Of a DNA stretch of 55,724 bases, positions 52,705 through 54,561 are shown in pieces. Numbering within the stretch: position 1 is the first letter of the stretch; each line of letters begins with the position of its first letter. Both the position numbers and the translations under genes were made by a program. The notes under the pieces were generated by a model. That model was not told the DNA's origin, did not search any database, and saw only the letters and a list, made by a program, of their open reading frames with translations. Source of the stretch: Alicyclobacillus sp. (GTDB lineage Bacteria > Bacillota > Bacilli > Alicyclobacillales > Alicyclobacillaceae); assembly GCA_023512635.1 (NCBI GenBank), contig JAILZF010000001.1, positions 1 through 55,724 on the forward strand, given 5' to 3'.

Positions 52705-54561
52705 ATGATAGATGTCAAGACCGCCGACAGGGAGCTGGCGACCTACGTGCGGCCCCAGACCTTCCCGGTGGCCATCCGCATGCTCCGGCCCGGCGAGCCC
52801 ATCCCCGAGCGCGCCAAGCGGCCGGCCCGCGACTTCAAGAAGCTGTCGATGAACTGCCAGGTGATCGACATGGCCCGGCGCTACGGGTGGACGATCGCGC
52901 TTACCCGGGACGACCACATCTGCTCGCTCGGCATCGCCGCGCTGGGGTTCGAGAAGCCGACCCACCTGCACACTTCCGGCACCCTGTGCGAGGGGATGTA
53001 CACGGAAACGAAGGAGGCCGGCCAGCGCTCCGAGGCGGCGGTGGACCGGTTCCCGGCCGGCGAGTACTACGCCCTGCTGGTGGCCCCGCTCGAGCGGGCG
53101 ACGTTCGAGCCGCACCTGGTCTGCGTCTACGGCAACCCGGCCCAGGTCATGCGTTTGACTCAGGCGGCGCTGTGGAAGCGGGGCGGCAAGCTGACCTCGG
53201 GCTTCAGCGGACGTGTCGTCTGCGCCGACATCATCGTCACCACCCTGCAGACCGGGGAGCCGCAGGTGATCCTGCCCTGCTCGGGCGACCGGATCTTCGG
53301 CCAGACCCAGGACCACGAGATGGCCTTCACCATCCCCTGGTCGCGGATGGAAGAGGTCATCGAGGGCCTGCGGGGCACCCACCAGGGCGGCATCCGGTAT
53401 CCGATCACGCAGTTCATGGAGTACGAGGCCAAGCTGCCGCCGCGCTACCTGGAGGCGAACCGGGTGTGGGACGCCCAGAGGGGCAAGGCCGAGTACACGC
53501 CGCGGGAGCGGGTGGTGGCGGCCTACAAGCGGACGTTCGCCGACCGGGTGCCGGCCTACCCGATCGTGGCCTCCTTCGCCGGCACGCTGGACGGCCTGTC
53601 CATCGAGGAGTACTGCACGAACCCCGGCAAGGCCATCCCGGCCATGATCCGTTACTGGGAGCGCTACCAGCCCGACGTCGTGCTGGCCTACAACGACCTG
53701 GCCAAGGAGGCCGAGGCCTTCGGCTGCCGCGTGAAGTATTCGGACTACGTGGTCCCCTCCATCGACCGCCACGTCCTGGCCGAGGACAAGAGCCTGCTGG
53801 CCCGGCTGCCGATGCCCGACCCCTACCGGACCGCCCGGCTGCCCGGCTTCCTCGAGCAGTGCGAGGCGCTGGTGGCGGCCAAGCTGCCGACGGCGATCGG
53901 CGCGGTGGCGGTGGGACCGTGGACGATCGCCATGCTCATGCGCAACCCGGAGGTGATGCTGCTCGACACCTTCGAGGACCCGCCGTTCATCCACGACCTG
54001 ATGCGCGTCACCACCGAGTTCTGCAAGGCCTGGGGGGAGGCGATCGCCAAGACCGGCATCGGGCTCAGCTTCTCGGAGCCGACGGCCTCGATCAGCCTGA
54101 TCTCACCCGACAACTACCGGGAGTTCGTGGCCCCCTACCACCGCGAGCTGGTGGAGCACTTCAAGGCCCGCAAGGTCGGGGTGACGACGCACATCTGCGG
54201 GACCACCTACCCGATCTTCGAGGACCTGATCCAGTGCGGCTTCACCACGGTCTCGTTCGACCTCGACCAGCAGTCCGACCCGGCCCGGCACGTGGACCAG
54301 CTGGCCCGGTTCGTGGAGGTCTCGCGGGGACGGGCGGTGGCCATCGGCAACGTGGACGCCACGCGGTTCGAGAAGACCACGAAGGAGGCGATGGAGGCCG
54401 AGGTGCGGCGCTGCATCGACACCGCTGCCCGGCACTCGGCATTCATCCTGTCGACGTCGTGCGAGATCCCGCCGCGCTCCGACCCCGAGGCCGTGCGGTG
54501 GTTCATGGACGCGGCCCGGGAGTACGGCCGCTACGACAGGATCTTCTCGGAGGGCGGCTGA
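52705..54561 (+). CDS. fusion protein: DUF169 domain plus MtaA/UroD-family (methylcobamide:thiol methyltransferase-like) domain
   Basis: ATG 52705 is preceded by GAGAGGAG.
- The N-terminal ~250 aa are DUF169-like (FPVAIRML...MNCQVIDMARRYGW...ICSLGIAALG...VVCADIIVTTLQTGEPQVILPCSGDR).
- The C-terminal ~350 aa are UroD-fold, with HIC (H496, C498) and C586.

The ORF track merges this gene with antisense addB sequence (51826..). Confidence 0.8.
   Translation: MIDVKTADRELATYVRPQTFPVAIRMLRPGEPIPERAKRPARDFKKLSMNCQVIDMARRYGWTIALTRDDHICSLGIAALGFEKPTHLHTSGTLCEGMYTETKEAGQRSEAAVDRFPAGEYYALLVAPLERATFEPHLVCVYGNPAQVMRLTQAALWKRGGKLTSGFSGRVVCADIIVTTLQTGEPQVILPCSGDRIFGQTQDHEMAFTIPWSRMEEVIEGLRGTHQGGIRYPITQFMEYEAKLPPRYLEANRVWDAQRGKAEYTPRERVVAAYKRTFADRVPAYPIVASFAGTLDGLSIEEYCTNPGKAIPAMIRYWERYQPDVVLAYNDLAKEAEAFGCRVKYSDYVVPSIDRHVLAEDKSLLARLPMPDPYRTARLPGFLEQCEALVAAKLPTAIGAVAVGPWTIAMLMRNPEVMLLDTFEDPPFIHDLMRVTTEFCKAWGEAIAKTGIGLSFSEPTASISLISPDNYREFVAPYHRELVEHFKARKVGVTTHICGTTYPIFEDLIQCGFTTVSFDLDQQSDPARHVDQLARFVEVSRGRAVAIGNVDATRFEKTTKEAMEAEVRRCIDTAARHSAFILSTSCEIPPRSDPEAVRWFMDAAREYGRYDRIFSEGG

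What the first reader, a model, noticed from the sequence alone, without database searches (positions are those of the whole stretch)
52705..54561. Single-polypeptide fusion of DUF169 with an MtaA/UroD-family methyltransferase-like domain
One uninterrupted 618-codon frame encodes two domains.
- The first ~250 aa are a complete-looking DUF169 module, a domain with no established function.
- The remaining ~350 aa form a UroD-fold domain. It lacks the HemE N-terminal signature.
- That domain keeps the HxC...C zinc-ligand pattern of corrinoid:thiol methyltransferases of the MtaA/MtbA type (H496-I-C498 at 54190-54198, C586 at 54460-54462).

A covalent fusion argues that DUF169 acts in the same reaction or pathway, such as methyl transfer or corrinoid-dependent demethylation. 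That would be a functional clue for an uncharacterised family. The gene sits in the compositionally foreign segment, next to a sigma-54 activator.
Basis: partly seen in the sequence, partly recalled or inferred. Interest (0 to 1): 0.65.

Follow-up and report, generated by a model that had tools for sequence, protein, structure and literature searches.

The report
DUF169 fused to MtaA-like zinc methyltransferase
This is a real, highly conserved Rokubacteria gene that joins the uncharacterised DUF169 domain to a zinc-dependent, MtaA-like methyltransferase domain; the same two modules are neighbouring genes in other bacteria, so they very probably work together, but their substrate is still unknown.

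Summary
Window 52705-54561 (+) is one intact 618-codon gene. It encodes a complete DUF169 module (Pfam E 1e-60) followed by a UroD-fold domain (E 8e-60). That domain is MtaA/CmuA-like, not HemE. H496, C498 and C586 align with the MtaA zinc ligands and are invariant in 62 relatives.

- **Not an artefact.** The fusion is intact in 241 species-level genomes, almost all Rokubacteria/Methylomirabilota. It is the most conserved protein of its neighbourhood there.
- **Independent support for coupling.** In other lineages DUF169 and the UroD-like protein are separate genes 1-14 nt apart, in the same order as the fused domains.
- **Corrinoid dependence is plausible but unproven.** An MtbC/MtgC-type corrinoid protein lies 1.5-10 kb away in some relatives, with a homocysteine-methyltransferase domain and a reactivation protein. 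No substrate-side methyltransferase is encoded in that cluster. The split pairs sit beside acyl-CoA and ETF genes and have no B12 gene nearby.
- **DUF169 itself.** It has no PDB fold match and carries conserved cysteines.
- **The "foreign segment".** It is a breakpoint at about 52369-52406, where two truncated genes abut. This is most likely a chimeric assembly join.

Verdict: a solid Rosetta-stone clue for DUF169 with an inferred mechanism; moderate interest.

The parts
52705..54561 (+). Complete gene for the 618-aa DUF169 + MtaA-like (URO-D fold) fusion protein, stop codon included
   Evidence: Searches show an uninterrupted frame. One search finds both Pfam domains. Searches show the same architecture in over 120 protein clusters and 241 genomes.
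52693..52698 (+). Shine-Dalgarno sequence GAGGAG, 6 nt upstream of the ATG
   Evidence: Sequence read directly.
52636..52673 (+). Conserved upstream element: the palindrome GCAACGCGTTGC (52636-52647), then GTAGTAGGCT 16 nt later (52663-52672). It is most simply a sigma-70-like promoter (TTGCGG, 18 nt, TAGGCT) with an overlapping operator.
   Evidence: The alignment of 81 upstream regions shows these blocks conserved. The strict motifs occur in 20 and 38 of 81 regions, with a fixed 16-nt spacing in 18 of the 19 that have both. The consensus promoter scan found nothing, so this is an inference.
52735..53367 (+). DUF169 domain (Pfam PF02596, residues 11-221). The conserved module continues to about residue 258 (53478) through the GG-x-RYPI...PP-x-Y tail.
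   Evidence: One search gives the Pfam match. The tail is conserved in stand-alone DUF169 proteins. The AF2 model has pLDDT 92 and no PDB fold match.
52855..53280 (+). Span holding the four invariant DUF169 cysteines: C51 (52855-52857), C73 (52921-52923), C173 (53221-53223) and C192 (53278-53280)
   Evidence: All four are invariant in 60 subfamily members. C51 and C173 stay invariant and C73 at 90% or more down to 30% identity. C192 is specific to this subfamily. Each sits at the N-terminal end of a predicted helix.
53497..54525 (+). URO-D-fold, MtaA/CmuA-like methyltransferase domain (Pfam PF01208, residues 265-607)
   Evidence: Searches give the family matches. The best Foldseek PDB match is MtaA 4ay7 (E 8e-23, TM 0.88 on the target).
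54190..54198 (+). H496-I-C498, the first two predicted zinc ligands
   Evidence: They align with HIC of MtaA and are invariant in 62 of 62 sequences.
54259..54261 (+). D519, aligned with the acidic residue of MtaA 'SVE' (presumed fourth zinc ligand)
   Evidence: One search gives the alignment. The residue is at least 90% conserved. PMC539065 states that MT2-A has the same zinc ligand set as MetE; that the set is His/Cys/Glu/Cys, and that this Glu is the ligand, rests on my own knowledge.
54460..54462 (+). C586, the third predicted zinc ligand
   Evidence: It aligns with the Cys of MtaA 'PGCGI' and is invariant in 62 of 62 sequences.
52369..52406 (.). Breakpoint where the 3.3-kb segment carrying the gene meets the rest of the contig. 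It is a probable chimeric assembly join; a real rearrangement is less likely.
   Evidence: Relatives match only from 52369, 52386 or 52394 rightwards. Hot-spring contigs X1 and X2 match perfectly up to 52406 and then diverge. The right side is found only in X3 and X4.
52387..52551 (-). First 55 codons of a TPR/aspartyl-protease-like gene, running in frame straight into an AddB-like gene that lacks its N-terminal part
   Evidence: These 55 residues are identical to the N-terminus of the 241-aa protein of L006 and then switch abruptly.
54601..54942 (-). Convergent gene for a 113-aa RRM-type RNA-binding protein, a conserved neighbour
   Evidence: One search gives the translation. An RRM_1 gene sits next to the fusion gene in 75 of 84 relatives' loci.
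55124..55724 (-). 3' part of a sigma-54-dependent response regulator, cut by the end of the contig
   Evidence: One search gives the translation. The same regulator plus a GAF histidine kinase is syntenic in 65-67 of 84 loci.

Best explanation
The gene encodes one rigid two-domain enzyme.
- **C-terminal domain.** It is a UroD-fold barrel of the MtaA/CmuA type. It binds zinc through H496, C498 and C586, with D519 as a probable fourth ligand. As in MtaA, it most likely uses the zinc to activate a thiolate or other heteroatom substrate for methyl transfer to or from a methyl carrier.
- **N-terminal domain.** DUF169 is an obligate partner module. It has a fold with no solved relative, conserved cysteines and many conserved arginines. 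It most likely holds a substrate or cofactor for the barrel.
- **Favoured specific model (inferred).** In Rokubacteria the protein is the missing substrate-side methyltransferase, or a second methyl-acceptor enzyme, of a corrinoid system encoded in the same neighbourhood. That system has an MtbC/MtgC-type corrinoid protein, a homocysteine-binding S-methyltransferase domain and a MetH-type reactivation protein, and would feed methyl groups into methionine.

Shown: the domains, the ligand alignment, the fusion, the split gene pairs and the conservation. Inferred: zinc binding, methyl transfer, corrinoid use and the role of DUF169.
For: **Domains and zinc site**
- Both domains are present and complete, and the zinc-ligand positions align with MtaA.
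- The ligand residues are invariant in 62 sequences.
- Foldseek's best PDB match is MtaA 4ay7, TM 0.88 on the target.
- The full-length AF2 model has pLDDT 93 and pTM 0.80. A pTM that high suggests a defined arrangement of the two domains; this is an inference.

**Coupling of the two modules**
- The fusion is found in 241 species genomes.
- Separate, adjacent DUF169 and UroD-like genes in the same order occur in L109, L112, L145, L133, L140 and L157, each with its own start and ribosome-binding site.
- L149 has the two genes in one operon, two genes apart.

**Conservation**
- Median identity is 83% across Rokubacteria, against 58-81% for six neighbouring proteins.

**Corrinoid link**
- A cluster of corrinoid protein, S-methyl_trans and Met_synt_B12-like genes lies 4-10 kb downstream in 7 Rokubacteria loci.
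- In the 65%-diverged fusion lineage (L111) the S-methyl_trans and Met_synt_B12-like genes lie only 1.5 kb from the fusion gene; the contig ends before any corrinoid gene.
- That corrinoid protein scores as a 'methyltransferase cognate corrinoid protein' of the MtbC/MtgC type (about 210 bits) rather than as MetH (130 bits). The contiguous L075 cluster holds no substrate-side methyltransferase.
- Stand-alone relatives of the UroD domain sit in a classical corrinoid cluster in L009.
- Stand-alone DUF169 lies in methylmalonyl-CoA mutase operons, next to a PocR/corrinoid/DUF1638 cluster.
Against: - The NCBIfam mtaA_cmuA score (124 bits) is well below the trusted cut-off (235), so this is a separate clade of untested activity.
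- No corrinoid gene is adjacent to the fusion gene. It is monocistronic, on the opposite strand from the corrinoid cluster, and separated from it by unrelated genes.
- Two informative Rokubacteria loci (L028, L070) lack the corrinoid cluster.
- All the synteny comes from one phylum, so it may only reflect shared ancestry.
- The split pairs in other lineages have no B12-binding gene within 6 kb. They sit with acyl-CoA ligase and CoA-transferase genes, or with ACAD and EtfAB genes.
- The closest stand-alone UroD relatives (66% identity) have no DUF169 neighbour and follow an F420-type LLM oxidoreductase gene.
- Nothing shows what DUF169 binds.
Confidence: 0.42

Rival explanations
1. The enzyme is self-contained and needs no corrinoid protein. 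DUF169 itself carries the methyl donor or a cofactor, such as a metal or Fe-S centre on its conserved cysteines, a folate-like ligand or a differently bound corrinoid. It presents this to the zinc barrel, much as the two barrels of MetE cooperate or as CmuA carries its own corrinoid domain.
For: - Neither the fusion nor the split pairs need an adjacent corrinoid gene.
- The two modules are always kept together and in the same order.
- DUF169 has invariant cysteines at helix N-termini and many invariant arginines, as a cofactor site would.
- The fold is new relative to the PDB.
- The model suggests a rigid two-domain body.
Against: - No cofactor motif is recognisable.
- hhalign against the classical B12-binding domain gives a probability of 0.1%.
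- C192 is not conserved in the wider family, so a four-cysteine cluster is not a family-wide feature.
- Many DUF169 proteins occur alone, without any UroD partner.
Confidence: 0.17
2. The protein is not a methyltransferase. The pair acts on an acyl-CoA or organic acid in a catabolic pathway. The UroD-fold domain would serve as a zinc-dependent decarboxylase, lyase or thiol (CoA) transferase, with DUF169 as a second subunit.
For: - The split pairs lie in operons with an acyl-CoA ligase and CoA-transferase A/B (L145), or with TetR, ACAD, EtfB and EtfA (L133, L140, L157; L160 has the same genes with DUF169 only).
- Enoyl-CoA hydratase genes flank stand-alone UroD relatives.
- One DUF169 is inserted between MaoC hot-dog halves (P0157).
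- DUF169 lies in a methylmalonyl-CoA mutase / ACAD / ETF region.
- D331 aligns with the catalytic Asp of HemE in the weak 4exq alignment.
Against: - The invariant His/Cys/Cys set with a conserved Asp is, from general knowledge, the hallmark of thiol-alkylating zinc barrels (MtaA, MetE), and UroD itself is not a metalloenzyme.
- The hemE model scores only 40 bits.
- Acyl-CoA genes are very common neighbours. The NCBIfam names are generic, and all but one (the enoyl-CoA hydratase of L010) fall below cut-off.
- The Rokubacteria context shows no acyl-CoA theme.
Confidence: 0.15
3. DUF169 is a cysteine-based sulfur or selenium carrier, for a persulfide or selenide. The fused zinc methyltransferase would methylate the carried chalcogen or a small thiol, for detoxification or volatilisation.
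For: - DUF169 has conserved cysteines.
- A rhodanese gene ends the Rokubacterial corrinoid cluster.
- Published mentions place DUF169 beside a TauE/SafE-type permease in Desulfovibrio G20 (PMC4001038), in a list of genes associated with selenium-utilisation genes (PMC5322559), and near an HgcA-like gene in Nitrospina (bioRxiv 10.1101/648329).
- DinB_2 (thiol-transferase-like) genes lie next to UroD relatives.
Against: - All of these links are single anecdotes.
- No sulfur-transfer motif was recognised.
- The most frequent contexts found here are not sulfur genes.
Confidence: 0.07
4. The fusion is an artefact: a lost stop codon, a frameshift or a misassembly that joined two genes.
For: The contig does contain a probable chimeric join 300 nt upstream of the gene.
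Against: - The join lies outside the gene.
- The same uninterrupted two-domain frame occurs in over 120 protein clusters and 241 species genomes from many independent assemblies.
- The linker is conserved and modelled with confidence.
Confidence: 0.01

Closest known systems
MtaA, methylcobalamin:coenzyme M methyltransferase of Methanosarcina (PDB 4AY7/4AY8; NCBIfam TIGR01463 MtaA/CmuA family)
   Same: - Same UroD-type barrel, and the best sequence and fold match.
- The His-x-Cys...Cys zinc-ligand positions align, and an acidic residue lies at the position of the MtaA Glu.
   Different: - About 22-23% identity over the fold alignment, and the family HMM score is only half the trusted cut-off.
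- Asp replaces Glu at the fourth ligand position.
- It carries an N-terminal DUF169 domain that MtaA lacks.
- It is bacterial (Rokubacteria), where coenzyme M is not expected (my own knowledge), so the thiol must differ.
- No adjacent corrinoid protein.
CmuA, the chloromethane methyltransferase of Methylobacterium: a UroD-type methyltransferase domain fused to a corrinoid-binding domain (from general knowledge)
   Same: A single polypeptide that joins an MtaA/CmuA-family zinc barrel to a second functional module of the same methyl-transfer reaction.
   Different: - The partner domain here is DUF169, not a B12-binding Rossmann domain (hhalign probability 0.1%).
- DUF169 is N-terminal to the barrel.
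MetE / core-MetE, the cobalamin-independent methionine synthase catalytic barrel (Pfam Meth_synt_2)
   Same: - Related zinc site on a distorted barrel.
- Weak Pfam hit over residues 485-595 (18.5 bits) and Foldseek matches to MetE structures.
- PMC539065 states that MT2-A has the same zinc ligands as MetE and that UroD is the closest fold to the MetE Hcy barrel.
   Different: - Below the Pfam gathering threshold (18.5 against 21).
- No second MetE barrel.
- No evidence for homocysteine or folate binding.
HemE, uroporphyrinogen decarboxylase
   Same: Same fold (Foldseek TM about 0.8 on targets) and the same Pfam family, URO-D.
   Different: - The hemE equivalog model scores 40 bits against a cut-off of 303, and the N-terminal HemE motif region is not matched.
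- This domain has a zinc-ligand set that HemE, which is not a metalloenzyme, lacks.
Stand-alone DUF169 proteins (Pfam PF02596, COG2043), about 260 aa and widespread in bacteria and archaea
   Same: - 46-58% identical to the N-terminal module, including the C-terminal RYPI...PP-x-Y tail and the four cysteines.
- No known function or structure.
   Different: - Here the module is covalently joined to the UroD-like barrel.
- Stand-alone members occur in many unrelated contexts: mutase operons, metal transporters, an aminotransferase, TonB/ExbB.

Membership tests
Pfam DUF169 (PF02596) | Match to the family HMM above the gathering score, over the whole model | tested here: met
   205.2 bits against a cut-off of 27. 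Residues 11-221 cover model positions 2-209 of 209.
Pfam URO-D (PF01208) | Match to the family HMM above the gathering score, over the whole model | tested here: met
   203.1 bits against a cut-off of 23.9. Residues 265-607 cover model positions 1-346 of 346. Foldseek TM is 0.77-0.88 on UroD and MtaA structures.
MtaA/CmuA family methyltransferase (NCBIfam TIGR01463) | Score above the curated cut-off of the family model | tested here: not met
   123.7 bits against a cut-off of 235.4. It is the best-scoring NCBIfam model, full length 1-338 of 340.
MtaA/CmuA family methyltransferase (NCBIfam TIGR01463) | Zinc ligands His-x-Cys ... Cys, plus an acidic fourth ligand, at the aligned positions | tested here: met
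   H496, C498 and C586 align with MtaA HIC and C. D519 aligns with the MtaA Glu of 'SVE'. The three are invariant in 62 of 62 sequences and D519 is at least 90% conserved.
MtaA/CmuA family methyltransferase (NCBIfam TIGR01463) | Works with a cognate MtaC-type corrinoid protein, often encoded nearby | tested here: inconclusive
   None can be seen in the window, which ends 1.2 kb past the gene. In relatives an MtbC/MtgC-like corrinoid gene lies 6-10 kb away in 6 loci. Two informative loci lack the cluster, and split pairs in other lineages have no B12-binding gene within 6 kb.
MtaA/CmuA family methyltransferase (NCBIfam TIGR01463) | Methylcob(III)alamin:thiol methyl transfer activity and bound zinc | not testable with these tools
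   Needs purified protein.
HemE (uroporphyrinogen decarboxylase, TIGR01464) | Equivalog score above cut-off, with the N-terminal substrate-binding motif | tested here: not met
   40.3 bits against a cut-off of 302.95. The match begins at model position 38.
MetE-type catalytic barrel (Pfam Meth_synt_2, PF01717) | Match above the gathering score | tested here: not met
   18.5 bits against a cut-off of 21, covering only the zinc-site region 485-595.
Classical B12-binding domain (Pfam B12-binding) as the identity of DUF169 | Profile similarity to corrinoid-binding Rossmann domains and a DxHxxG motif | tested here: not met
   hhalign of the DUF169 profile against 7 corrinoid-binding proteins gives probability 0.1%. 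H71 of 'DDHICS' is not conserved.

The most novel reading that the evidence does not exclude
DUF169 is a previously unrecognised cofactor- or methyl-donor-handling domain. The DUF169 + UroD-like enzyme would be the missing substrate-side methyltransferase of a modular, folate-domain-free, corrinoid-dependent methionine synthase. That system would comprise an MtbC/MtgC-like corrinoid protein, a homocysteine-binding domain protein and a reactivation protein, and would be near-universal in Rokubacteria, a major uncultured soil phylum. If so, it would draw methyl groups for methionine from an as yet unknown environmental methyl donor.
Probability: 0.13. Interest if true: 0.78.

Novelty: new variant of a known kind. 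Interest (0 to 1): 0.5.

Why it matters
- **An orphan family gets a partner.** DUF169 (COG2043) is a widespread, strongly conserved family. The paper library held no described function for it, and the PDB holds no related structure.
- **Three kinds of linkage.** The fusion, the adjacent split genes and an operon two genes apart all tie one DUF169 subfamily to one clade of MtaA-like zinc barrels. That gives a concrete, testable partner and chemistry, namely zinc-activated alkyl or methyl transfer.
- **Likely a core function.** The protein is the most conserved gene of its neighbourhood and is present in hundreds of Rokubacteria/Methylomirabilota genomes. It probably performs a core function in an abundant, uncultured soil phylum, possibly linked to methionine and one-carbon metabolism.
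- **A caution for users of this contig.** The gene sits beyond a probable chimeric join, so its taxonomic label and left-hand context should not be trusted.

Tried and rejected
- **Exact-protein contig look-up for the window protein:** nothing on record. The cluster look-up showed only that the window is a whole 55,724-nt NCBI contig.
- **PDB sequence searches for DUF169:** the single sequence found only MtaA and HemE, through the C-terminal domain. The DUF169 profile found nothing (best E 1.3, a ribosomal protein).
- **Foldseek of the DUF169-only model against the PDB:** best E 0.47, TM about 0.2. The top noise hits (sarcosine oxidase gamma subunit, LigM) are not significant and I do not rely on them.
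- **DUF169 as a divergent B12-binding domain:** rejected. hhalign probability is 0.1% and there is no conserved DxHxxG.
- **A four-cysteine Fe-S cluster as a family-wide feature:** weakened, because C192 is Gly or Asp in distant members.
- **Riboswitch or other known RNA in front of the gene:** no Rfam hit at E up to 1.
- **Sigma-54 promoter in front of the window gene:** no canonical GG-N10-GC match. A perfect one exists only in L109.
- **Consensus sigma-70 promoter and terminator scan:** nothing found.
- **DMSP/MMPA-type pathway (DmdB/DmdC) for the acyl-CoA neighbours of the split pairs:** NCBIfam gives only generic, below-cut-off names such as long-chain acyl-CoA ligase and AcrABC-like ACAD/ETF.
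- **Literature searches (DUF169, COG2043, PF02596/IPR003748, Rokubacteria + corrinoid):** only passing mentions and no functional study.
- **Domain interface and distance from the cysteines to the zinc site:** could not be inspected, because model coordinates and PAE are not returned.
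Full report

Yes. Window 52705-54561 (+) is a single open frame of 618 codons plus a stop. A GAGGAG ribosome-binding site lies 6 nt before the ATG.

- Pfam finds a complete DUF169 module at residues 11-221, covering model positions 2-209 of 209 (E 1.4e-60).
- Pfam also finds a complete URO-D module at residues 265-607, covering model positions 1-346 of 346 (E 8e-60).
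- NCBIfam places the second domain nearest the MtaA/CmuA family (124 bits) and methylcobalamin:CoM methyltransferases (118 bits).
- The hemE model scores only 40 bits against a cut-off of 303, and that match starts at model position 38.

In the HMMER alignment to M. mazei MtaA (4ay7, E 3e-14), 'THICG' of the query lies on 'LHICG' of MtaA and 'TSCEIPP' lies on 'PGCGIAP'. D519 falls on the Glu of MtaA 'SVE'. PMC539065 states that MT2-A, the MtaA-type enzyme, has the same zinc ligand set as MetE; that this set is His/Cys/Glu/Cys is my own knowledge. H496, C498 and C586 are invariant in 20 fusion proteins and 42 stand-alone relatives, and D519 is at least 90% conserved.

**2. Is the fusion genuine?**

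Yes.

- A search of 5.8 billion proteins returns more than 120 clusters at 84-99% identity. All are about 615 aa and carry both Pfam domains.
- A scan of one genome per species finds 241 genomes encoding it. The best 80 are almost all Rokubacteria/Rokuibacteriota/Methylomirabilota MAGs.
- A few carry odd labels (Binatia, Nitrosocosmicus, Nitrosotalea, Acidoferrum, Limnocylindria). All are third-party (TPA) SMAG_U-series MAG assemblies on short contigs with Rokubacterial synteny, so they are most likely mis-binned.
- At 50% clustering only one intact diverged fusion lineage appears (P0121, 66% identity). Everything else is a fragment, a stand-alone DUF169 of about 260 aa (up to 55-58% identity), or a stand-alone UroD-like protein of about 345-358 aa (up to 66-67%).
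- Across the same set of Rokubacteria loci the fusion protein is the most conserved of its neighbourhood. Its median identity is 83%. Malic enzyme has 81%, the S-methyltransferase/MTHFR protein 75%, the amidohydrolase 71%, the amidase 62% and the histidine kinase 58%. This points to a core function.

**3. The contig has a break just upstream of the gene.**

- DNA similarity to relatives' loci begins abruptly at window 52369 (L006, 95%), 52386 (L019, 98.9%) or 52394 (L005, 89%).
- On the minus strand, a gene starting at 52551 is identical for 55 residues to the N-terminus of a 241-aa TPR/aspartyl-protease-like protein of L006. It then runs in frame into an AddB-like protein that lacks its N-terminal part.
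- Contigs of two hot-spring runs (X1, X2) match the left side perfectly up to 52406 and then continue with unlike sequence. They do not hold the right side.
- Runs X3 and X4 hold the right side but not the left. No run holds the joined form.
- The window is a whole 55,724-nt NCBI contig.

The simplest reading is a chimeric assembly join at a short shared stretch of about 38 nt. A genuine rearrangement is not excluded. It does not affect the gene itself.

**4. Structure.**

- AF2 models the whole protein with pLDDT 93 and pTM 0.80. A pTM that high for two domains of 260 and 355 residues suggests a defined mutual arrangement. This is an inference, because coordinates and PAE are not returned.
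- Foldseek places the C-terminal domain on MtaA (E 8e-23, TM 0.88 on the target), then on HemE structures, then on MetE.
- The DUF169 module modelled alone (pLDDT 92, pTM 0.88) has no significant match in the PDB (best E 0.47). It also has no sequence relative there.
- Its invariant residues include four cysteines (C51, C73, C173, C192), each at the N-terminal end of a helix, and seven arginines.
- C51 and C173 stay invariant, and C73 nearly so, at 30-37% identity. C192 is specific to this subfamily.
- It is unrelated to the classical B12-binding domain (hhalign probability 0.1%).

**5. Do the two modules work together?**

Independent evidence says yes. A metagenome scan with stand-alone DUF169 proteins returned 80 loci: 56 fusions (two more, L136 and L161, are probably fusions cut by contig ends) and 22 stand-alone.

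- Ten of the stand-alone loci belong to one lineage, described in section 6.
- Among the other twelve, six have a separate UroD-like gene immediately downstream of DUF169: L109, L112, L133, L140, L145 and L157. L149 has one two genes further on.
- In the three junctions read (L109, L112, L145) there is a real stop codon, a 0-14-nt gap, a ribosome-binding site and a new start codon.
- These pairs are 41-54% identical to the fusion and come from genomes of 47-61% GC, so they are different lineages. Gene order equals domain order.

This is classical Rosetta-stone support for a shared function.

**6. What do the surroundings say about that function?**

*Rokubacteria.* The fusion gene is monocistronic. 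It is convergent with an RRM-type RNA-binding protein gene in 75 of 84 loci. Behind that gene, on the minus strand, usually lie a GAF histidine kinase with a sigma-54 response regulator, an amidohydrolase, an amidase and a bifunctional homocysteine S-methyltransferase/MTHFR.

- In seven loci whose flank reaches further, the series continues with a MetH-activation-domain-like protein. Five or six of them (as far as the flank reaches) also show a 308-aa homocysteine S-methyltransferase-domain protein and a corrinoid protein, and four a rhodanese. Two loci with enough flank lack this cluster.
- That corrinoid protein scores as a 'methyltransferase cognate corrinoid protein' of the MtbC/MtgC kind (about 210 bits) rather than as the MetH cobalamin domain (130 bits).
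- The contiguous cluster in L075 contains no substrate-side methyltransferase and no pterin-binding module.
- In the 65%-diverged fusion lineage (L111), the S-methyltransferase and activation genes lie only 1.5 kb from the fusion gene, convergent with it.

*Stand-alone relatives.*
- One UroD relative (P0278) sits in a classical corrinoid cluster: activation-like protein, corrinoid protein, ferredoxin, AFOR and two UroD paralogues.
- Stand-alone DUF169 of the P0409 lineage lies inside methylmalonyl-CoA mutase operons. In L100 and L101 an MtaC-like corrinoid gene lies next to it, annotated in L100 as part of a PocR/AraC, corrinoid and DUF1638 cluster.

*Against a simple corrinoid story.*
- The split pairs lie with an acyl-CoA ligase and CoA-transferase A/B (L145), or with TetR, ACAD, EtfB and EtfA (L133, L140, L157). 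L160 has the same genes with DUF169 only. None has a B12-binding gene within 6 kb.
- The closest stand-alone UroD relatives (66% identity) follow an F420-type LLM oxidoreductase gene and have no DUF169 nearby.
- Other stand-alone DUF169 genes sit next to ZnuA/ABC-3 transporters, an aminotransferase or TonB/ExbB genes.
- One DUF169 is inserted in a MaoC hydratase.

**7. Regulation.**

- The window has no canonical sigma-54 promoter in front of the gene, no Rfam element and no consensus sigma-70 hit.
- A conserved element does exist: the palindrome GCAACGCGTTGC, then 16 nt, then GTAGTAGGCT, about 30 nt before the ATG. I read it as the gene's own promoter with an operator.
- In L109 the split pair is preceded by a CBS-PAS protein and a PAS-sigma-54 activator. 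It also has a perfect TGGCAC-N5-TTGCT promoter with two upstream repeats of TTGCA-N3-TTGCAACAGGG.
- In L142, of the diverged fusion lineage, the GAF kinase and sigma-54 regulator lie upstream on the same strand.
- A link to sigma-54 regulators therefore recurs, but it is not demonstrable for the window.

**8. Most likely mechanism.**

The C-terminal barrel binds zinc through H496, C498 and C586, probably with D519. It uses the zinc, as MtaA and MetE do, to activate a thiolate or other heteroatom substrate for methyl transfer. DUF169 is an obligate partner that holds a substrate or cofactor.

My favoured specific model is that, in Rokubacteria, the protein serves the MtbC/MtgC-like corrinoid protein of the neighbourhood. 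It would act either as the missing substrate:corrinoid methyltransferase or as an alternative acceptor-side enzyme, within a system whose other acceptor enzyme makes methionine. Confidence is about 0.4.

Rivals are listed below with the evidence for and against each:
- a self-contained enzyme in which DUF169 carries the cofactor;
- a non-methyltransferase role in acyl-CoA metabolism;
- a sulfur or selenium carrier.

**9. Comparison with what is known, and novelty.**

- The domain passes the Pfam URO-D and DUF169 tests.
- It fails the curated cut-offs of MtaA/CmuA, HemE and MetE models, while keeping the aligned MtaA-type zinc-ligand positions.
- It works most like MtaA or CmuA but is a separate clade with a new partner domain.
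- The architecture already sits in public databases under generic names ('MtaA/CmuA family methyltransferase', 'DUF169 domain-containing protein').
- I found no paper that discusses it or assigns any function to DUF169.

I rate it a new variant of a known kind, with interest 0.5. It is a robust and testable functional clue for an orphan family in a major uncultured phylum, but the chemistry is still inferred.

Noticed in passing
window 52369-52551 (both strands): Two truncated genes abut. The first 55 codons of a TPR/aspartyl-protease-like gene run in frame into an AddB-like gene that lacks its N-terminus. Public contigs hold either the left or the right side, never the join, so the 55.7-kb contig is probably chimeric here.
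   Followed up: yes
window 52636-52673; upstream regions of L019-L098: A conserved element precedes the fusion gene across Rokubacteria: the palindrome GCAACGCGTTGC, then 16 nt, then GTAGTA(C/G)GCT. It is likely a promoter plus operator. There is no sigma-54 -24/-12 element and no Rfam hit.
   Followed up: partly
L109:2640-2995: A perfect sigma-54 promoter, TGGCACAAAATTTGCT, lies about 45 nt before the split DUF169 gene. Two upstream repeats of TTGCA-N3-TTGCAACAGGG look like activator sites. CBS-PAS and PAS-sigma-54 activator genes lie immediately upstream.
   Followed up: partly
L075:15127-20727 (-); also L063, L065, L069, L074, L077, L081 (in part) and L111:4393-6156 (-): A Rokubacterial gene series: bifunctional Hcy-S-methyltransferase/MTHFR, shikimate kinase, MetH-activation-like protein, a 308-aa Hcy-S-methyltransferase-domain protein, an MtbC/MtgC-type corrinoid protein and a rhodanese. 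It looks like a modular corrinoid-dependent methionine synthase with no pterin-binding or substrate-side methyltransferase gene in the cluster.
   Followed up: partly
L014, L099-L105 (DUF169 at about 6001-6780): In a Thermodesulfobacteriota-like lineage, stand-alone DUF169 is the gene after methylmalonyl-CoA epimerase, in an operon with MeaB, carboxyltransferase and both mutase subunits. In L100 it converges on a PocR/AraC regulator, MtaC-like corrinoid protein and DUF1638 cluster.
   Followed up: partly
P0157 (574 aa, from the representative search): A DUF169 domain is inserted between the N-terminal and C-terminal hot-dog halves of a MaoC-type (R)-hydratase. This is another DUF169 architecture, and it points to CoA-ester chemistry.
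   Followed up: no
L017:8986-11071 and L018: The closest stand-alone relatives of the UroD-like domain (66% identity, 356 aa) follow, by 14 nt, an F420-type LLM-class oxidoreductase gene. They precede a 677-aa protein of no known family. No DUF169 is nearby.
   Followed up: no
L006/L007/L008, about 12240-21500: In the 99%-identical relative, the region behind the RRM gene holds a phage-type integrase and an island with Prim-Pol/PriCT, HNH and HTH genes, in place of the two-component system seen in the window. This is an integrated mobile element at that spot.
   Followed up: no
L019, L059, L072, L079, L082, L088, L094 (record titles): Contigs carrying the fusion gene, of which at least L019 and L079 show typical Rokubacterial synteny, are labelled Binatia, Acidoferrum, Nitrosocosmicus, Nitrosotalea, Deferrimicrobiaceae or Limnocylindria in third-party (TPA) SMAG_U-series MAG assemblies. 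P0004 is labelled Calidithermus. These are probably binning errors.
   Followed up: no
L010:7247-7906 and L149:2518-2997: DinB_2-family (thiol-transferase-like) genes lie directly beside UroD-like genes in two unrelated lineages. In L149 the order is DUF169, GNAT, DinB_2, UroD-like.
   Followed up: no
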